34,006 bases of DNA from a virus (lineage: Duplodnaviria; Caudoviricetes): IMG/VR virus record IMGVR_UViG_3300017903_001352, positions 1-34,006 of that record, one strand, 5' to 3'. A program made the position numbers and the translations under genes. The first letter of the stretch is position 1, and each line of letters begins with the position of its first letter. Under the pieces are notes generated by a model, which searched no databases, had not been told where the DNA came from, and was given only the letters and a program-made list of their open reading frames with translations. Below are positions 28-33,816 of this stretch, piece after piece.

Positions 28-219
28 ATGTATAAATCATACGAAGAGGAGGAGGCTATTAGAGAATGGCTTACAACACAACATATACCAAGCTTGGCGC
101 AAAACATAGGATTAGATAAGGGCAAGTTATACCGTTTACAAGACGGATCTAGTAAAAGGCCTAGCTACAACCTAGTAAGAGAGCTTATACTCTATAAAGA
201 GAAGAAGGAAGCTAGTTAA
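28..219 (+). CDS. XRE/Cro-like helix-turn-helix regulator
   Basis: 63 aa with HTH pattern IPSLAQNIGLDKGKLYRLQDGSSKRPSYNLVREL; clear paralogue of 28060..28257. Confidence 0.7.
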   Translation: MYKSYEEEEAIREWLTTQHIPSLAQNIGLDKGKLYRLQDGSSKRPSYNLVRELILYKEKKEAS

Positions 220-539
220 TGTATGATACTGCTTTAAAATCTTTCTTAGCATACCAGGGACAAATACAACAAATACCGGCGTCGAATCATAAAGCTTTAG
301 TCTATGAATTCTGCGACAAGCTAAATATAGATTATGATAAGCTATATAATAAAAGCAGAAAGTTAGAATACGTGCGCTATCGTGCTCTCTTTTGTAATTG
401 GGTAAGCCTTGGCCACGTAGAGACTGCTAGAATACTAAATAAAAATCATACTTCAATAATGCACCTTAGAGGAACGCATAAAGAAAGACTACAGTACGAT
501 AATACTTATAAAAGACTATTTAAAGAACTATGCACATAA
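219..539 (+). CDS. DnaA C-terminal (domain IV)-like HTH DNA-binding protein
   Basis: KSRKLEYVRYRALF...VETARILNKNHTSIMH matches the DnaA domain IV pattern (SR..+VR.R...EIGR.F.RDHTTV+H); no AAA+ domain. Confidence 0.7.
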   Translation: MYDTALKSFLAYQGQIQQIPASNHKALVYEFCDKLNIDYDKLYNKSRKLEYVRYRALFCNWVSLGHVETARILNKNHTSIMHLRGTHKERLQYDNTYKRLFKELCT

Positions 540-547
540 TGACCCAT

Positions 548-626
548 CCCGTCTAGCTTGGTAACTATACGGGTTCTTGTTATTGTTTATCTATACCGTA
601 TAAGTTGAAAGCTATACGGTTTTTTT
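548..626 (+). ncRNA. Candidate structured 3'-UTR RNA / attenuator (hairpin, U/G-rich seed, terminator)
   Basis: Hairpin CCCGTCTAG/CTATACGGG 548-573; linker 577-592 complementary to 32361-32376 and 32659-32672; terminator 595-626. Confidence 0.5.
595..626 (+). terminator. Intrinsic terminator before the portal gene
   Basis: ACCGTATA (595-602)/TATACGGT (613-620) stem followed by a T-run. Confidence 0.8.
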
Positions 627-2990: not shown

Positions 2991-3040
2991 GATTTTTGTT
3001 ATCGTATGCCCTAGGTCTTGAAACGGTCTAGGGTTTTTTT
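2991..3040 (+). ncRNA. Candidate 3'-UTR antisense RNA ending in an intrinsic terminator
   Basis: 2994-3011 TTTTGTTATCGTATGCCC is the exact reverse complement of 29464-29481. Confidence 0.6.
3009..3040 (+). terminator. Intrinsic terminator after the lysis cassette
   Basis: CCCTAG...CTAGGG stem followed by T7. Confidence 0.85.
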
Positions 3041-9794: not shown

Positions 9795-10215
9795 AGATTC
9801 TACAACCCAACTACAAGTAGCATATTACACGCTATTAAATAATAACGTATCAGTATCGGGTAGCGTCGTGCCGGTTTACGACGATGTGCCGGCTAATGCT
9901 ACATATCCTTTAATAACCTTTGAGGATACGACTTTAGCGGATAATTCTACTAAGTCTACTTTTATGGACGACGTTACTTTTTCTTTGTCCGTAGTAGATC
10001 GTTTTGGAAGGGATGGGGGTAGCAGAGCTAAAATAAATAGCGCCGTTAATGAAATAAAAACAATTATAAGAGCAAGGCCCGTACCTTTCAATCTAACCGA
10101 CTTTAACGTAATTAGCTCGGTAGTCGATAGCGATATATCTTTAAAGGAAAAAACAGAGACGTACACGTATTTTATTAGGCGTCTAAGATTTAGGCACGTT
10201 ATAGAAGAATCTTAG
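9787..10215 (+). CDS. Tail terminator/completion protein (DUF3168-like)
   Basis: LQVAYYTLL...VYDDVPANATYPLITF; position before the tail tube gene. Confidence 0.8.
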   Translation: MAKDSTTQLQVAYYTLLNNNVSVSGSVVPVYDDVPANATYPLITFEDTTLADNSTKSTFMDDVTFSLSVVDRFGRDGGSRAKINSAVNEIKTIIRARPVPFNLTDFNVISSVVDSDISLKEKTETYTYFIRRLRFRHVIEES

Positions 10216-10280: not shown

Positions 10281-10721
10281 ATGCCCGCTATTAACGGAAC
10301 ACTAATTTTATTTAACGTAGACGTAAAAGATGGTACGCCCGACGAGTTGGGTATGACTACTAGCGCTACTCTTAATATTGAAATGGACCTACCCGACGCG
10401 TCTAACAAGCAGTCGAGCGGATGGGCCACGCATATACAAGGCCAAAAGTCTTGGAGCATTGACTTAGATGGTGTAGCTGACTTTGTAAGCTCAACCGGAA
10501 CAGTCGAAAAACTAGGAAACTATATTATAAACCGTAACGCCGTAGATGTTGAGTTCGTACCTAACTCTAGCGGGCCGGACGCCGGAACTTATGTTAAGTA
10601 TAGCGGTGAAGCTTCGCTAGCGTCTGTAAGTTTTGTAGCGGGTAACGAAGATACCGCAACTTTATCGGGTTCTTTTACCGGTAATGGCGCACTAACTGCC
10701 GGAACTCTTACTATAACTTAA
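10281..10721 (+). CDS. Major tail tube protein (TP901-1-like)
   Basis: INGT, D.SNK.SSGW..I.GQKSWSI..DG, SGSFTGNGALT. Confidence 0.9.
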   Translation: MPAINGTLILFNVDVKDGTPDELGMTTSATLNIEMDLPDASNKQSSGWATHIQGQKSWSIDLDGVADFVSSTGTVEKLGNYIINRNAVDVEFVPNSSGPDAGTYVKYSGEASLASVSFVAGNEDTATLSGSFTGNGALTAGTLTIT

Positions 10722-11002
10722 TGAAGGGTAGTAAAAAGGTTACAATATCGGGTAATAGTTACTCGTTCCGTTTTGACCTTAATGCTCTAGAGAGGTTTAC
10801 CGAGGAAGCGGGAGTAGGCTTAAATAGTATGGATGAAGCCTTAGATAAGGTTGCTAATCTAAAATTATTTATACAAGCCTTATCCGCCTCGGGTGGTAAA
10901 GAGGTCCCAAGTGAGGATATAGGTAAAATGGACTTTGTACAACTTAATGAGGTATTTGAGTTGGTACGTGAGTCTATGGGAAACCTAAAGGCCCAAGCGT
11001 AA
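10721..11002 (+). CDS. Tail assembly chaperone (gpG-like)
   Basis: Between tube and TMP; slippery G GGA AAC near the 3' end. Confidence 0.85.
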   Translation: MKGSKKVTISGNSYSFRFDLNALERFTEEAGVGLNSMDEALDKVANLKLFIQALSASGGKEVPSEDIGKMDFVQLNEVFELVRESMGNLKAQA

Positions 11003-11046
11003 AGGGGGAACCCTTCGAGTCGATCGAAGAGCTTTACGTATTGGGC
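10978..11046 (+). promoter_or_regulatory. Programmed -1 ribosomal frameshift signal
   Basis: G GGA AAC (10978-10984), 6-nt spacer, stem GCCCAAGCGTAAAG/CTTTACGTATTGGGC; the -1 frame is open into the 11041 ORF. Confidence 0.85.
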
Positions 11047-11337
11047 TATCGGATGGGGCTTAAACCGGTGGAGTTAAGAAGTACTACTATGTACGATTTT
11101 AACTTAATGTCTAGGGCCTATGGGGAGAACATAAAACACGATTATAACATAATGAGAATAAACGCTTTTTTAGTCTCGGCCTACTCGGGCTTAGATGGAA
11201 AAGCAAGAAAAAAACTAACACCGGAAAAAATGTTTCCTCTAGAGTTAAATAGCGAAAAGCCACCGATAGACAAAGAAAAGCTATTTAAACTAGCGAAGGC
11301 AGTAACAGAAGCAAGGGAGGGAACAGATGTTAGCTAA
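10984..11337 (+). CDS. Tail assembly chaperone gpT-like extension (made as a gpGT fusion)
   Basis: The -1 frame from the slippery site reads PKGPSVKGEPFESIEELYVLGYRMG..., continuous with ORF 11041..11337. Confidence 0.8.
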   Translation, partial: PKGPSVKGEPFESIEELYVLGYRMGLKPVELRSTTMYDFNLMSRAYGENIKHDYNIMRINAFLVSAYSGLDGKARKKLTPEKMFPLELNSEKPPIDKEKLFKLAKAVTEAREGTDVS

Positions 11338-16400: not shown

Positions 16401-18402
16401 TAGTAATTGGAACACGGGTTATAATAGATCTATTACCTCAGTTGCTTTTGATACCGGCACGGGGGTGCTTACCCTTAACCAACAGAACGGCGGTACTGTA
16501 ACAAAAGATTTAGACGGTAGATATTTACCATTATCCGGGGGAACACTAACGGGGACTCTTACCGTACAAGCGGTAATGGCGCAGTCTAACGCGGGTCCAA
16601 AGTTTCAACTAATAGAAACGGATGAGCAAGATCTAAATAAGGAAATATATTTAAACGGTGGGGACTTTTTTGTACGTAACCTAAATGATGACGGTACAAA
16701 TCCAACCGGAGAGAATATTCTTAAAATAAGCCACGCCGGTGTCGTAACCTTATTGGCTCAGGGTACTACAAACGCCGAAAACCTTAATGCTCTTTTTCAA
16801 AATTCGGACGGTGTTTTAAAACGTCGTACTCTTGGTTCTAATGCGTTTAACAGTACCACAATACCAACTAATAATAATCAGCTTACAAATGGCGCCGGTT
16901 ATATTACTTCTTTTGACATAACTACGCAAACAGACCCTAAGTATTTAAGAAGTGATGCAAGCGATACAACAACGGGCAACATTACTATAAGTAAAGATAA
17001 CCCTACGCTTACTTTAGTAGAAGCAAATAGCGCGACGGGTAGTTATCCAAGAATTAATTTTGATACGCAGAATAATCAAGGCGTATCACTTTATCATAGC
17101 GAGTTTGATAGTGAACTAACTGTAGATGGATATGGTCTTGTTTTAGATGCTTCATCAAGTAATACACAGTTTCCAACAACGGGGACACTTACTTTTAGTG
17201 TGCTAGGCGAAATTTACGCGGGGGGTACTTCGCTTGGTTCTTTAAATAAGGTATTTCACGATGGCTATCACCCTAATGCTGATACGCTTACAACTTCTAG
17301 AACCATTACACTAGGTGGCGACCTTACGGGCTCGGCGTCTTTTGATGGTAGTGCAGATATTACTATATCAGCCCAGGTATCTAATAACAGTCATACGCAC
17401 GATGATAGGTATTTACAACTATCCGGCGGTACGCTTACGGGTTCGGTAGACTCAAACTCAGAGATTAAGACAACCGACCATTTTACGACTGATTCAGGTG
17501 AACTTTTAAACTTAAATCAATCAAGTTGGGCAAACGAGCCTAATCATTATGTTTTATATAATGCTTGGACTTCTTCGACGGGTGATTATTTATTAGTTAA
17601 AGCTTCGGGTAATGCTACGGGCGAAGTTCACGGAACATTATTAATTGCCGATAATGGATTATACTACGGTAAAGACGGAGCGCAAGAGTCAGCCGAGGAT
17701 AGTGCTACCGCTCCTTTAGACACGACATTATTATACTTTAGATCTAATGGCTCTTACATTAATAGCGATTTAGAAGTAAGCGGAGATATTGAAACTGAAG
17801 AAATAAAAAGCGTAGCATACCCAAATAATAATTTTTTAAAGTTCAATGATGACCAGACCGTAGGAACTAATATGGTTACGCTTGGCTCTCTTGGTAAAAT
17901 GAATTTTATAGTAGATAGTAACGGTAATGATACTACGAGCCATTTTAGATGGGCTACCGATGGCGTGGATATGGACACAAATACCACCCTAATGACGTTA
18001 GACGATGAGGGCAATTTAAGCATTGAATCGGGAGACGTAGATATAAATGGTACACTTACGGCTACGGTAAAGTCTTTTGATATAAAACACCCTACGCAAG
18101 ATGGAAAGCGTTTAGTATATGGTGTTCTTGAAGGTCCCGAGCACGCCGTATTTTATAGAGGTCGCTCAAATTCTAGATATATAGAATTACCCGAGGAATG
18201 GACCGGGTTAATAGACCCGGAAACTATTACCGTACAACTTACACCCGCAAGCAAACCAAAAACATATTACTATAAAGGCTACAAAGATAATAAAATAGAG
18301 GTCGGCGTTAGTGGTTGGAATTGGAATTATGATTATTTTTATATAGTACACGCTACTCGTATAGACGTAGAACCATTACAGACGGTGCAAGATGCTGATT
18401 AA
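13498..18402 (+). CDS. Large tail tip/hub protein fused to a fibre
   Basis: 1634 aa directly after TMP; N-terminal 580 aa like FCB-phage tail proteins; ARTNLGLG and YLPLSGGTLTG fibre motifs; C-terminal KSFDIKHP...LEGPE...IELPEEW domain typical of marine phage fibres. Confidence 0.8.
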   Translation: MAYGLKYYFVDKKIVTSTTVTYRFEILQENYTGSATEWNGVSIQRQYEESSLRDIKSIQKGSVSGTIRVEDATQRGVIETIAGSQIGDYKVQLKKDNSVVWTGYVVPDLINISEENYRNQTADIVAKDLLFTGDFTLDTGDEKAIVLIADILDTLGYGLNITSYTSWTDTTLTTTDDILNQSYHKKDRLRIFAQTDNDEDRALTNEQALEYILKAYGIILRQANGTWNLIQISAFETTSAVRRYIYNSSGSQTSSETDYQLGSVLAQGDLRLFGATSNNYYAGVKKVESRFDHNTNIQGIKLNREYWITDGSDITKSQFIQSDGTGNIELFFVTWFAKTTAIDLGNPNVLDVQIYVDTASTDYYWNGTAWQTTPTTIDIDVEATYSTQDSDDNYVHKNNGVSIVTTGIPDGSDGTLYVKFITDELIQNYAYWYLRSVDLKVAYSDQVGGVSEGIEYELVQTGSYSHIYDYGTYYYGGGPTSGALSALRDSSGDLLGSWKRSTDSSATSHAELLLRERLDIMRGQRRNMRGVLYGEYEPDKALNYDSTVFFFLGGSWDSSTYQWNANFIELDVDTATDDDFNIFYITEGEGTTSGSVGSLSTSTGSGSLYLEKSKNLQDVTSASTARTNLGLGATSDVDFGQVTGSSFVKENGQSDEFLKADGSVDDSTYLTQSDTDALYDDYNYFSVSDGSSTFNVGSQQTMSITASGASSLTYDTETRSINISSTDTNTDTNHYLNTVTWDSGTGVLSFDMIGTPDFTVDIDGRYLEAHPTIANVPSDSTNTDNTVIQSLGFDTFGHVDSVATKDFTNVFDKYSSWTATVGTDTATIGSADSLEFRGGDNVTIELSGSQLTINASTGGDGDITAVNTDTNSGLAGGVTSGSADLSLNITNLPTLTASGGSESIAIQDGNTTKNIAISNISLSHFNDDLTYLTSETSHDDVVVDGDFTANGLMKRTALGTYATITDSSSNWNTGYNRSITSVAFDTGTGVLTLNQQNGGTVTKDLDGRYLPLSGGTLTGTLTVQAVMAQSNAGPKFQLIETDEQDLNKEIYLNGGDFFVRNLNDDGTNPTGENILKISHAGVVTLLAQGTTNAENLNALFQNSDGVLKRRTLGSNAFNSTTIPTNNNQLTNGAGYITSFDITTQTDPKYLRSDASDTTTGNITISKDNPTLTLVEANSATGSYPRINFDTQNNQGVSLYHSEFDSELTVDGYGLVLDASSSNTQFPTTGTLTFSVLGEIYAGGTSLGSLNKVFHDGYHPNADTLTTSRTITLGGDLTGSASFDGSADITISAQVSNNSHTHDDRYLQLSGGTLTGSVDSNSEIKTTDHFTTDSGELLNLNQSSWANEPNHYVLYNAWTSSTGDYLLVKASGNATGEVHGTLLIADNGLYYGKDGAQESAEDSATAPLDTTLLYFRSNGSYINSDLEVSGDIETEEIKSVAYPNNNFLKFNDDQTVGTNMVTLGSLGKMNFIVDSNGNDTTSHFRWATDGVDMDTNTTLMTLDDEGNLSIESGDVDINGTLTATVKSFDIKHPTQDGKRLVYGVLEGPEHAVFYRGRSNSRYIELPEEWTGLIDPETITVQLTPASKPKTYYYKGYKDNKIEVGVSGWNWNYDYFYIVHATRIDVEPLQTVQDAD

Positions 18403-26518: not shown

Positions 26519-26547
26519 TTTGGTATTAATAAAATTATACCTATATT
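26519..26547 (+). promoter_or_regulatory. Early promoter of the recombination/replication operon
   Basis: A-tract UP region, TTTG-19 nt-TATATT, then AACGATAACAAAC; same layout as 32326 and 33213. Confidence 0.65.
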
Positions 26548-26585
26548 ATTGTTAGCTAACGATAACAAACCTAAAAGGATAACAA

Positions 26586-28589: not shown

Positions 28590-29011
28590 TGGGACTACAA
28601 AATAGTAAAAATCTTTCATCAGCTAAAAAGACTTGCGACGAGTGGTTTAGCCGTTACATAAGAATAAGGGACGCTAACGCAAATGGATTATGCAAATGCG
28701 TTACTTGTGATACGGTAAAGCCCTGGCGTGAGATGGACTGCGGGCATTTCCAAAGCCGTAGATATATTGCTACTAGATGGCTAGAGCAAAATGCTCACGC
28801 TCAATGTCAATCGTGTAATAAATACCAGGCCGGAGAACAATATAAACACGGAAGAGCTATAAACGATTTTTATGGAGAAGGGACGGCGGAGTATATTGCA
28901 TACTCTTCTAGAGCTTTGCATAAAATGAACAAACAAGAAGTAATGGAACTAGCAAGATATTTTAAACAAGAAACCGAAACCCTAGCAAAGGAAAAAAATT
29001 TAGAAATATGA
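28589..29011 (+). CDS. ninG: NinG/Rap-family endonuclease
   Basis: FSRYIRIRD, CVTC, DCGHF.SR, NAHAQCQSCN. Confidence 0.92.
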   Translation: MGLQNSKNLSSAKKTCDEWFSRYIRIRDANANGLCKCVTCDTVKPWREMDCGHFQSRRYIATRWLEQNAHAQCQSCNKYQAGEQYKHGRAINDFYGEGTAEYIAYSSRALHKMNKQEVMELARYFKQETETLAKEKNLEI

Positions 29012-29412
29012 ATAAAGTTATTTTAATAGGAAGGCTTGGCAAAGACCCCGAGTTACGTATGACGCAAACTAATATGCCGGTGGTAAATTTTAGTCTAGCA
29101 ACTTCTTCAAAGTACAAAGGAGAGGAACAAACAGAGTGGCATAATATAGTTTGTTTTAATAAGACCGCAGAAATAGCCGAAAAATATCTAAATAAAGGCG
29201 CGTTAGTAGCAATAGACGGAAAAATAAAGACGTCAAGTTATGAGAAAGACGGGCGTACTATTTATAGAACAGATATTCTTTGTAACAGTTTAGATATGTT
29301 AGGCAGTAAAGATAGTAGCACTAACAAAGATAAGCCCGTAGAAGCTAAAAACGGCGCTCAAAAGGTAACAAATATAGATCTAAGCACAATAGACGACGAG
29401 TTACCATTTTAG
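29008..29412 (+). CDS. ssb: Single-stranded DNA-binding protein
   Basis: MNKVILIGRLGKDPE, TEWHNIV, C-terminal DDELPF. Confidence 0.97.
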   Translation: MNKVILIGRLGKDPELRMTQTNMPVVNFSLATSSKYKGEEQTEWHNIVCFNKTAEIAEKYLNKGALVAIDGKIKTSSYEKDGRTIYRTDILCNSLDMLGSKDSSTNKDKPVEAKNGAQKVTNIDLSTIDDELPF

Positions 29413-29454
29413 AATAATTTTTTCTACATTAATCAAAACATTAACGCCGGTCTA

Positions 29455-29538
29455 TTTGTCCGTGGGCATACGATAACAAAAGACTAACAAATACGGGGGA
29501 TGTTTGACGTTATGCCCAACGTTGAGCGTTCCCTTTTT
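29455..29538 (+). promoter_or_regulatory. Structured leader/attenuator of the replication initiator gene
   Basis: Hairpin with loop GGGCAT (29464-29469) and a 16-bp G.U-rich hairpin with loop ATGCCC (29512-29517) followed by TTTTT, ending 4 nt before ATG 29543. Confidence 0.7.
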
Positions 29539-29542
29539 ATTT

Positions 29543-30202
29543 ATGAAAGGTTGGATAAGTTTACATAGGAGCATAGAAGAACATTGGTTATATCCTAAAG
29601 GGCGCGAGTTTACAAAATATGAAGCCTGGATAGATATACTCTTACAAGTGAATCACGCAGAAAAAAAAGTAATGATAAAGGACGAGCTTTTTTTGTGTAA
29701 ACGTGGGGACTCTGTAAGGTCTTTAAAGGAGTGGGGCAAGCGTTGGGGATGGAGCCGTAATAAAGTTAGAAGGTTTTTAGAACTGTTAGAAAAAGATTCG
29801 ATGATTGTACTAAGACCCGACACAAAAACGACACACCTAACAGTATGCAATTACGACACTTACCAGGTAGCGCGGAACAGTAACGGACATCAGACGGACA
29901 CCGCACGGACATCAGACGGACATCAGACGGACACAAACAATAACGTAAATAACTATAACAATGTAAACAATGTAAATAAGACGCCGACTATAGATTTAGT
30001 AATAAATTATTTTAAGGAGAGTGGTGTTATATCTAAAAAGGATATAAAAGCAGAGTCTAGAAGATTTATGGCCTACTATGAAGAGATGAATTGGAAAAAA
30101 AATAATATCCCAATAAATTGGATAAATAGAGCCGGTAGGTGGGAGACTACATACACAGAATTTAAATTACGAGATGAACGCAAACATCAAAACCCATTTT
30201 AA
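29543..30202 (+). CDS. Replication initiator / replisome organiser (lambda O-analogous)
   Basis: MKGWISLHRSI..HW, AWIDILL..NH, RWGWSRNKVRRFL..LE, LTVCNYDTYQ; internal iterons; ATG 29543 preferred over TTG 29504. Confidence 0.85.
   Translation: MKGWISLHRSIEEHWLYPKGREFTKYEAWIDILLQVNHAEKKVMIKDELFLCKRGDSVRSLKEWGKRWGWSRNKVRRFLELLEKDSMIVLRPDTKTTHLTVCNYDTYQVARNSNGHQTDTARTSDGHQTDTNNNVNNYNNVNNVNKTPTIDLVINYFKESGVISKKDIKAESRRFMAYYEEMNWKKNNIPINWINRAGRWETTYTEFKLRDERKHQNPF
29883..29937 (+). repeat. Five tandem 11-bp iterons (ACGGACAtcag), probable replication origin
   Basis: ACGGACA at 29883, 29894, 29905, 29916, 29927, followed by an A-rich tract to about 29980. Confidence 0.85.
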
Positions 30203-32220: not shown

Positions 32221-32325
32221 ATAACCAGGAACGCCCGTTCCTAAAAAAAAATTAAAAAAAAATATGGGTCTACATACCCAAAAAGGGCTATTTTATAATA
32301 AATAAAAAATAATTTAAAAATTTAT

Positions 32326-32354
32326 TTGCATTGAATGTAGGAATGCCGTATCAT
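32326..32354 (+). promoter_or_regulatory. Strong early promoter
   Basis: TTGCAT-17-TATCAT with upstream A-tracts; also readable as TTTG-20-TAnn. Confidence 0.75.
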
Positions 32355-32389
32355 TAAGTAAGATAAACGATAACAAAACACCTAAAAAA

Positions 32390-32662
32390 ATGAAATTCAA
32401 ATACGTACACGCCGTCGAGTATTATAATATCAAAACCCGGGATTATTCTTTTTCTCGTTATTTCTCTTCAGAAAAAAAAGCCAAAAAAGATATAACAGAA
32501 ACAGTAAAACCTTATGGTATAGAGCCAAAATTTACATATTTACCCGTTTCGGACCTTACCTATATAACAGACCAAAATGCCTCGCAATTTTATAGAAATA
32601 TAGAGTACCGAAAAGACAGAACTTGCTATCCCGTAGCCATAATTAAAAAAATAGTAGAATAA
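32390..32662 (+). CDS. Hypothetical early protein
   Basis: 90-aa ORF after the promoter and leader motif. Confidence 0.7.
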   Translation: MKFKYVHAVEYYNIKTRDYSFSRYFSSEKKAKKDITETVKPYGIEPKFTYLPVSDLTYITDQNASQFYRNIEYRKDRTCYPVAIIKKIVE

Positions 32663-32676
32663 ACAATAACAAAACC

Positions 32677-33192: not shown

Positions 33193-33212
33193 AAAAATAA
33201 TTAAAAAAATAT

Positions 33213-33241
33213 TTGCATTGTATTATAAATGTGTGTATATT
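33213..33241 (+). promoter_or_regulatory. Strong early promoter
   Basis: TTGCAT-17-TATATT with the same upstream AAAAATAATT..AAAA.ATTTGCATTG context as 32326. Confidence 0.75.
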
Positions 33242-33279
33242 ACTTGTGAATTAAGAAACGATAACAAAACACAAGAACA

Positions 33280-33487: not shown

Positions 33488-33504
33488 GGGGCTTCGGCCC
33501 CCTT
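33488..33504 (+). terminator. UUCG hairpin (weak terminator / processing site)
   Basis: GGGGC-TTCG-GCCCC; poor U-tract. Confidence 0.6.
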
Positions 33505-33521
33505 ACTTAAACGATAACAAA

Positions 33522-33785
33522 ATGACAAAACGTAAAAGATACACAAGCGCAAATTTCTACCCGGTAGGCGATGTAGATTTATGCAATGTTGAATACGATT
33601 TAATAGCAGATCTACAAATAATGAGCAGAGAAAGCTTTTGGAAAAACGAACTACATAACGAGGACCATCCGGACTTTCTTAGAAAATATAGCACAGAGGT
33701 ACCCGAGTATATGATACTGTATATAGTCGAAAGACTAGAAGAGTATTGGAAAATACTTTATCCCGAGCGGTACGAAGAACAATAA
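33522..33785 (+). CDS. Hypothetical early protein
   Basis: 87 aa, preceded by AAACGATAACAAA. Confidence 0.7.
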   Translation: MTKRKRYTSANFYPVGDVDLCNVEYDLIADLQIMSRESFWKNELHNEDHPDFLRKYSTEVPEYMILYIVERLEEYWKILYPERYEEQ

Positions 33786-33795
33786 ACAACAACCC

Positions 33796-33816
33796 GGGGG
33801 CTTCGGCCCCCCTTTT
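33796..33816 (+). terminator. UUCG hairpin terminator
   Basis: GGGGGC-TTCG-GCCCCC-C-TTTT; near copy of 33488. Confidence 0.7.

What the first reader, a model, noticed from the sequence alone, without database searches (positions are those of the whole stretch)
29455..29542. Kissing-loop / terminator leader controlling the replication initiator
Seen: hairpin 1 (TTTGT.CGT-GGGCAT-ACG...ACAAA) and hairpin 2 (16-bp stem 29496-29511/29518-29533 plus TTTTT) have exactly complementary 6-nt loops, GGGCAT and ATGCCC, immediately before the ATG. Established: IncI/IncB plasmid rep genes are activated by a loop-pairing pseudoknot that an antisense RNA blocks, and pT181-type plasmids use antisense-driven attenuation; those RNAs are cis-encoded. 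Inference: a plasmid-like replication-control switch in a phage, operated by a trans-encoded RNA from 2994-3011.
Basis: partly seen in the sequence, partly recalled or inferred. Interest (0 to 1): 0.85.

Follow-up and report, generated by a model that had tools for sequence, protein, structure and literature searches.

The report
Kissing-loop terminator gating phage replication initiator

Summary
Observation confirmed. Hairpin 1 (29449-29485) and a terminator-like hairpin (29495-29538) have complementary tips, 8 nt (TGGGCATA/TATGCCCA), ending 8 nt before the ATG of a DnaD-like initiator. The pairing is conserved. Twelve related leaders carry six loop codes. In an unguided alignment 96% of loop-loop cells pair and 6 of 7 pairs change on both sides (0/500 shuffles). 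The design is widespread: 41 of 167 long terminators in related phage loci have it, versus 3.8 expected. Best model: a cis attenuator working like the guanidine-IV riboswitch platform but lacking conserved loop residues. Hairpin 1 catches the nascent terminator loop and allows read-through; blocking it gives termination. The 18-nt complement at 2994-3011 is real but is not a conserved partner. A near-identical site exists in phages without the leader, it matches an early-gene leader tag, and strong cognate pairing is seen in the window only, not in 4 relatives. No conserved IncI-type leader peptide or counter-promoter was found. No Rfam match, and nothing in print in my searches; this scan has noted the class 67 times. 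No expression data. Interest 0.6.

The parts
29008..29412 (+). ssb gene, upstream neighbour; the -35-like hexamer of the putative leader promoter lies in its last codons
   Evidence: PHROG 44 E 3.5e-45; Pfam SSB
29401..29430 (+). Putative promoter, TTACCA-18-TACATT (8 of 12 to sigma-70 consensus; weak, inferred)
   Evidence: Read from the sequence. Relatives' best + promoters end 118-127 nt before the ATG in 10 of 10, inside a 65-nt search window, with TATATT in 7 of 10.
29449..29485 (+). Hairpin 1; tip TGGGCATA 29463-29470 is the partner of the terminator loop; its 3' arm contains the early-gene tag ACGATAACAAAA (29470-29481)
29495..29538 (+). Hairpin 2, predicted intrinsic terminator: 17-bp stem, tip TATGCCCA 29511-29518, T-tract 29534-29538; stem ends 8 nt before the ATG
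29543..30202 (+). DnaD-like / replisome-organizer replication initiator (219 aa)
   Evidence: PHROG 2514 E 3.3e-29, PHROG 428 E 7.6e-8; phage homologs annotated replisome organizer or replication initiation protein; no Pfam hit
29883..29933 (+). Five ACGGACA repeats at an exact 11-bp period inside the initiator gene; likely iterons of the origin (inferred)
2994..3011 (+). 18-nt exact complement of hairpin 1's tip and 3' arm, at the 3' end of the lysis module; a candidate anti-leader tract; its last 4 nt lie in the terminator stem
3008..3040 (+). Predicted intrinsic terminator after ORF 2685-2990 (holin-like by position only; no family hit)

Best explanation
This is a conserved two-hairpin leader whose first tip is complementary to the loop of the terminator-like hairpin before the initiator gene, and it likely acts as a cis transcription attenuator in which that pairing is the read-through state. 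Shown: the anatomy, the covarying 7-9-bp loop-loop helix, the + strand polarity, and the position before the initiator. Inferred steps: (1) a promoter just after ssb starts an RNA about 12 nt before hairpin 1, and hairpin 1 folds first. (2) When the terminator's loop leaves the polymerase, before its 3' arm is made, hairpin 1's tip captures it. With only 9 nt between the two stems, the lower terminator stem then cannot close in time, so polymerase reads into the initiator gene. (3) If the stem wins, or the tip is occupied, a roughly 100-nt RNA is released. (4) The loops vary freely, so the input is probably an RNA, not a metabolite. The likeliest blocker is the released leader RNA itself: its exposed terminator loop could kiss the tip of new transcripts, giving negative feedback as genome copies rise. 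Step 4 is the least certain (about 0.3). The terminator arm also covers the ribosome-loading region, so translation may be gated too.
For: Unguided MAFFT alignment of 12 leaders: RNAalifold picks the loop-loop helix as the consensus. 81 of 84 cells pair, 6 of 7 pairs change on both sides, covariation 0.777 vs 0.264 shuffled (0/500), and at most 0.154 when slid. 14 of 138 distinct initiator upstream regions (window included) have a loop-loop match of 7 nt or more. Across 273 loci, 41 of 167 long terminators have a 7-nt or longer upstream complement to their loop; permuted mean 3.8, max 10; downstream control 6. 28 of the 41 have a 20-33-nt gap, with 25 distinct codes and only 3 of 600 cross-matches of 7 nt. 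L007, L016, L048 and L222 each carry two elements with different codes, which fits self-contained units. [quoted passage not shown] IsrK is a terminated phage leader RNA that acts in trans on its own read-through transcript (PMC4825925, passages).
Against: No transcript, termination or probing data. The direction (kiss = ON) is borrowed from guanidine-IV. The promoter in the window is weak (8 of 12), and the scan tool did not list it. In the window a classical antiterminator is also possible (pairing probability 0.77). The leader is dispensable in close relatives: L018, L021-L023, L028 and L029 have ssb abutting the initiator. The 12 aligned leaders represent only 6 codes and are related, so the shuffle control overstates significance; pairs with double change 34/500, further pair types 321/500. 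Self-RNA feedback has no direct evidence.
Confidence: 0.6

Rival explanations
1. One reading: a late RNA ending at the 3008-3040 terminator is an 'anti-leader' RNA against the early-gene tag, and in this lineage it also pairs 18/18 with hairpin 1, blocks the kiss and shuts off the initiator late in infection.
For: Best partner of hairpin 1 among 2240 windows (-33.4 kcal/mol; tags elsewhere -9.5 to -16; net -17 after unfolding). It lands exactly on the tip. The tract is complementary to 4 early leaders in the window and to 6, 3, 7 and 9 leaders in L021, L023, L028 and L029 (0/300 shuffles each). Seed-level preference for the own loop in the window, L001 (6 nt, top 2.7%) and L019 (6 nt, top 0.6%). 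TATGC at the site occurs only in the two genomes with GCATA loops among the sites compared.
Against: Leaderless phages carry a near-identical site, two letters apart from the window's over the 18-nt stretch. No strong cognate pairing in L001, L019, L020 or L027, and none of them is cognate-best by duplex energy. Seed test fails in L020 and L027. G001 (100% complete) has no antisense match over 9 nt. GCCC, the part that would meet the loop, is inside the site's own terminator stem. The tract-tag match is weak in L001, L019, L020 and L027 (10, 8, 73 and 7 of 300 shuffles) and absent in L030. An 18-nt distal match arises in 3% of simulated genomes.
Confidence: 0.25
2. Fixed-ratio or protein-tuned attenuator: the kiss only sets a constant leak through the terminator, or is stabilised by a phage or host protein; no trans RNA is involved, and loop codes differ by neutral compensatory drift and module swapping.
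For: Pairing rather than sequence is conserved. Many distant members share an A/U-rich spacer (AAGA-A-ATT-like) that could be a protein site or a tertiary strand. Near-identical initiator N-termini carry different leaders (L001 vs L002).
Against: 25 near-orthogonal codes, six of them in close kin, are more than a fixed leak seems to need. No candidate protein was identified. The spacer motif is absent from the window's own subfamily.
Confidence: 0.3
3. Translational switch (IncI-like logic): the pseudoknot frees the terminator's 3' arm next to the start codon, and the main effect is on translation of the initiator from ssb-operon read-through mRNA.
For: The stem ends 8-13 nt before the ATG in 9 of 9 core leaders. 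In I-complex plasmids a pseudoknot switches rep translation (titles and passage in PMC10724649).
Against: A T-tract follows the stem in all members. No conserved leader ORF. In distant members the first ATG lies up to about 50 nt downstream.
Confidence: 0.12
4. Cis-encoded countertranscript control as in pT181, from a minus-strand promoter inside the initiator gene.
For: A 10-of-12 promoter-like site on the minus strand at 29701-29672.
Against: Position and strength are not kept in 10 relatives (7-9 of 12, at 118-201 nt). The scan finds 41 such sites vs 29.8 by chance. A countertranscript would not need loop-loop covariation.
Confidence: 0.07
5. The element is mainly a small RNA gene, and the terminated RNA acts on other targets through its loops; or the pairing is DNA-level or incidental.
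For: It has its own promoter-like site and terminator; terminator loops can seed pairing (PMC11979758, search listing and abstract start only).
Against: The codes covary only with each other. No second model hit in the window or 41 other sources beyond the known members. G-U-rich stems favour RNA on +.
Confidence: 0.06

Closest known systems
Guanidine-IV riboswitch (GGAM-1 / mepA motif; PMC7736828, PMC11611296, passages read)
   Same: 5' hairpin whose loop pairs with the loop of the intrinsic terminator; about 100 nt; directly before a gene; the kiss competes with completion of the terminator.
   Different: Guanidine-IV has highly conserved loop nucleotides needed for ligand binding and sits mostly before sugE-type exporters. 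Here loop positions vary freely (commonest base 15 of 25 at best), the genes are phage replication and early genes, and there is no Rfam hit.
pT181/pIP501 antisense-driven attenuator (PMC4878617, passages read)
   Same: Terminator in the leader of a rep gene; a 5' hairpin decides termination; blocking that hairpin gives OFF.
   Different: There the antiterminator sequesters the terminator's 5' arm and the antisense RNA is a fully complementary countertranscript. Here the partner is the terminator loop, and no counter-promoter is conserved.
IncI/IncB/IncK rep pseudoknot with Inc RNA (PMC10724649, passages and reference titles; leader-peptide coupling recalled)
   Same: Loop pairing upstream of a replication initiator; the loop sequence could define specificity groups.
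   Different: Translational switch needing a leader peptide and cis antisense RNA. Here there is a terminator with a T-tract, and no conserved leader peptide.
P4 CI RNA / Gifsy-1 IsrK / P1 c4 RNA (PMC4825925, passages; c4 table entry in PMC2864571)
   Same: Phage leader RNAs that control premature termination or translation in trans; CI gates P4 replication genes; IsrK is the terminated form acting on its own read-through form.
   Different: No Rfam match to these families. No separate CI-like RNA was found. The complementary pair lies in two loops of one 90-nt unit.

Membership tests
Guanidine-IV riboswitch | 5' hairpin loop pairs with the terminator loop | tested here: met
Guanidine-IV riboswitch | Highly conserved loop nucleotides forming the ligand pocket; match to the curated model | tested here: not met
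   25 different codes, no invariant position; no Rfam hit at gathering or up to E 10 apart from two unrelated chance rows
Guanidine-IV riboswitch | Upstream of guanidine exporter or related genes | tested here: not met
   downstream gene is a DnaD-like initiator
Guanidine-IV riboswitch | Ligand-dependent read-through | not testable with these tools
   needs in vitro transcription
pT181-type attenuator | Intrinsic terminator in the rep leader | tested here: met
   predicted only
pT181-type attenuator | Antiterminator that sequesters the terminator's 5' arm | tested here: inconclusive
   probability 0.03-0.77 over 9 leaders, 0.77 in the window; not conserved
pT181-type attenuator | Cis-encoded countertranscript | tested here: inconclusive
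   no conserved minus-strand promoter in 11 leaders; no RNA data to look for the transcript
IncI/IncB rep pseudoknot | Conserved translated leader peptide coupled to rep (feature recalled) | tested here: not met
   leader ATG ORFs differ in start, length and frame across 11 leaders
IncI/IncB rep pseudoknot | Pseudoknot upstream of a replication initiator | tested here: met
P4 CI / c4 / IsrK trans-acting phage RNAs | Match to the curated RNA families | tested here: not met
P4 CI / c4 / IsrK trans-acting phage RNAs | Separate trans RNA whose complementarity to the target is conserved | tested here: inconclusive
   strong in the window only; 0 of 4 relatives by duplex energy, 2 of 4 at seed level

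The most novel reading that the evidence does not exclude
Phages use bar-coded kissing-loop terminators as protein-free copy-number and immunity switches: each released leader RNA shuts off new transcripts carrying the same loop code. In this lineage the initiator's switch has also been wired to the late anti-leader RNA, so a single 3'-end RNA of the lysis operon turns off both early-gene translation and replication.
Probability: 0.15. Interest if true: 0.9.

Novelty: new variant of a known kind. Interest (0 to 1): 0.6.

Why it matters
If the model holds, loop-to-terminator-loop kissing, so far shown for a ligand-binding riboswitch, is a common ligand-free control device of phages. It gates replication initiation with at least 25 near-orthogonal 7-9-nt codes. 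That would give a testable answer to how phages with no recognisable repressor (none found in this 94%-complete record) limit replication, and a natural library of orthogonal 90-nt attenuators; few orthogonal pT181 variants could be made by rational mutation (PMC4878617, passage). This window adds a possible link between this class and lysis-operon anti-leader RNAs.

Tried and rejected
Exact loop pattern in 39 loci: no match, because the codes differ. The 18-mer in viral contigs: 2 hits (L040, L041) in unrelated, apparently coding DNA, dropped as chance. Terminator pattern scan: 46 loci, most unrelated; L047 and L051 were new members, and L048 a distant design. One search used start coordinates about 10 nt off; its leader windows still covered the element, and redid the test. 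One search counted one terminator several times (67 of 239) and was replaced (41 of 167). The simulation (29 of 150) also counted self-palindromes and was replaced (10 of 300). Rfam: nothing. RNA model R1 over 42 sources: 10 hits, all known core members. Sequencing runs: no RNA holder listed. DNA contigs X2 and X4 (one other study) cover the leader with no listed change in 29413-29561; X2 covers 2994-3011 with none; not informative on covariation. Literature searches that found no description of this element. PMC5737381 (passages; 'kissing' 0 times) and PMC10690425 (passages; 'kissing' 0 times) do not describe it in the main text. The supplement of the first could not be read and that of the second was not examined; either may list it as an unnamed candidate. 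PMC7430163 (passages) gave nothing relevant. No structure prediction or complex job was run.

Full report
Setting. The window is a 34,006-base virus record, 94% complete. Its annotated genes lie on the + strand, with portal, endolysin, head, tail, recombination, ssb, initiator and terminase genes. The best holder is a seawater metagenome that may be its source. The host is unknown. The closest initiator homologs in named genomes lie in Bacteroidota bins (Prolixibacteraceae, Lutibacter, Flavobacteriales), but Bacillota also appear among the 35 loci. ORF 29543-30202 is a DnaD-like / replisome-organizer initiator, with five 11-bp-spaced ACGGACA repeats at 29883-29933 that look like origin iterons (function inferred).

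Observation. Hairpin 1 (29449-29485) and hairpin 2 (29495-29534, T-tract to 29538) are as described. Their tips are complementary over 8 nt. The stem has six G-U pairs and folds much better on + than on -, so the functional molecule is most likely + strand RNA. The folding z-score alone is -2.15.

Conservation. Initiator homologs were collected from viral, metagenome and genome collections. Of 138 distinct upstream regions examined, 37 had a terminator-like hairpin and 14, the window included, had a loop-loop match of 7 nt or more. Twelve of these form the window's own subfamily, with six codes: TGGGCATA, GAGCATA, GATGCAGA, GTGCAGT, ATGCAGG and TGTACGCTA. In a plain MAFFT alignment, RNAalifold chose the loop-loop helix as the consensus. 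Counted alone, the helix has 81 of 84 cells paired, 6 of 7 pairs with double-sided change, and a covariation score of 0.777 against 0.264 shuffled (0/500) and at most 0.154 slid. Two of the five measures were not extreme (34/500 and 321/500), and the sequences are related. Six close relatives (L018, L021-L023, L028, L029) have no leader at all, so it is an optional module.

Wider class. Over 273 loci (2.72 Mb, chosen mostly around initiator homologs, so not a random sample), 41 of 167 distinct long terminators have a 7-nt or longer complement to their loop within 65 nt upstream. The permuted mean is 3.8 (max 10) and the downstream control gives 6. Twenty-eight have a 20-33-nt gap and show 25 codes that rarely cross-match (3 of 600). 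Eighteen of the 41 have a Bacteroidota-type TAnnTTTG (motif recalled) 7-17 nt before the first tip; the window's subfamily does not. Four loci hold two elements with different codes. Earlier notes of this scan list 67 similar findings; these are leads, not independent support, but they show the class is not unique to this genome.

The trans-RNA claim. The match 2994-3011 / 29464-29481 is exact. A distal match of that length appears in 10 of 300 simulated genomes, but this one falls on the tip itself, which chance alone makes unlikely. Against a dedicated partner: 12 of the 18 nt are a tag found before several early genes. Leaderless phages carry almost the same site before the same terminator. 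The complete relative G001 has no antisense match over 9 nt to its loop. Cognate duplexes in L001, L019, L020 and L027 rank only in the top 5.6, 32, 50 and 51%. The site is better read as a candidate anti-leader tract: it complements 4 leaders in the window and 6, 3, 7 and 9 in four leaderless relatives (0/300 shuffles each), weakly in L001, L019 and L027, and not in L020 or L030. For a link: in the window the duplex is -33.4 kcal/mol, about twice that with any tag, and at seed level the site prefers its own loop in the window, L001 and L019, though not in L020 or L027 (a post hoc test on short AT-rich words). I put a functional link in this lineage at about 0.25.

Mechanism. The tested precedent is the guanidine-IV riboswitch. 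There a kiss between the first hairpin and the terminator loop hinders the full terminator and promotes read-through, and lengthening of the terminator stem shortens the linker and disfavours the kiss (PMC7736828 and PMC11611296, passages). The same geometry is here: a 9-nt linker and a 17-bp stem. I infer that the tip of hairpin 1 captures the terminator loop before the 3' arm is made. The lower stem then cannot wind in time while the RNA is tethered to polymerase (my inference), giving read-through. Otherwise an RNA of about 100 nt is released. A + strand promoter-like site ends 118-127 nt before the ATG in 10 of 10 relatives, within a 65-nt search window. In L002 and L090 ssb is distant and inverted, so the leader there needs its own promoter. 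Because the loops have no fixed letters, a ligand pocket is unlikely. The likeliest input is an RNA with the loop-2 code, and the released leader is the only such RNA guaranteed in every member. IsrK is a precedent for a terminated leader acting on its own read-through form, and P4 CI for RNA-driven termination before replication genes (PMC4825925, passages). From general rate constants (own knowledge), trans capture within the 1-2 s of leader synthesis needs hundreds of copies or a pause, which is a real hurdle. This step is untested.

Known families. It works like the guanidine-IV expression platform but is not a member: no conserved pocket, other genes, no Rfam hit. It is not an IncI or pT181 system: no conserved leader peptide, counter-promoter or 5'-arm antiterminator (definitions from PMC4878617 and PMC10724649, passages; the leader-peptide feature recalled). 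Eight literature searches found no description. Supplements of PMC5737381 (unreadable) and PMC10690425 (not examined) may hold it unnamed, and most subscription journals are not in the library.

Verdict. A real structured RNA leader (about 0.95). A kissing-loop attenuator with kiss = read-through (0.6). A dedicated trans trigger from 2994-3011 (0.25). New variant of a known kind, apparently undescribed in print, but recurrent in this scan. Interest 0.6.

Noticed in passing
window 2991-3040, with tags at 26559, 32367, 33258, 33511, 32663: U/G-rich tract before the lysis-module terminator is complementary to the tag (A)CGATAACAAA(A) found before early genes; kept in leaderless relatives; a candidate anti-leader small RNA. 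In the L027 clade both tract and commonest leader word differ.
   Followed up: partly
window 548-625: Two hairpins in tandem before the portal gene, with a tract between them complementary to the A-rich word at 32659-32672 (14-nt inverted match); a possible second anti-leader tract or simply a terminator tail.
   Followed up: no
window 26520-26570, 32325-32380, 33212-33270: Three similar early promoter-like units, TTTG(C/G)-about 20 nt-TAT(C/A/T)AT(T), followed by the tag; two are preceded by A-rich inverted repeats.
   Followed up: partly
window 29883-29933: Five ACGGACA repeats at an 11-bp period inside the initiator gene, followed by an AT-rich stretch; likely the replication origin.
   Followed up: partly
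window 33488-33501 and 33796-33811: Two near-identical GC-rich UUCG hairpins (15-nt direct repeat) flanking ORF 33522-33785; a cassette-like arrangement of small early genes.
   Followed up: no
window 219-539: 106-aa ORF with a weak DnaA C-terminal helix-turn-helix hit (E 0.0045, below cut-off).
   Followed up: no
window 10721-11337: Tail assembly chaperone-like ORF pair (10721-11002 and 11041-11337) before the tape measure gene; a programmed frameshift is common there (recalled) but was not checked.
   Followed up: no
L048:8850-8915 and 9990-10060; L016:16250-16312 and 17760-17821: The same loop-to-terminator-loop design after TTGACA-type promoters, two elements per locus with different codes; in L048 the terminator is branched. 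The class seems not limited to Bacteroidota-type promoters.
   Followed up: partly
L139:170-238 and L199:1720-1789: Variant with a gap of about 55 nt and an extra small hairpin between the two partners, also before initiator homologs.
   Followed up: no
L001, L002, L047, L051: Leaders and initiator N-termini appear shuffled among relatives: near-identical N-termini with different leaders (L001, L002), and one leader code with different initiators (L090, L051).
   Followed up: partly
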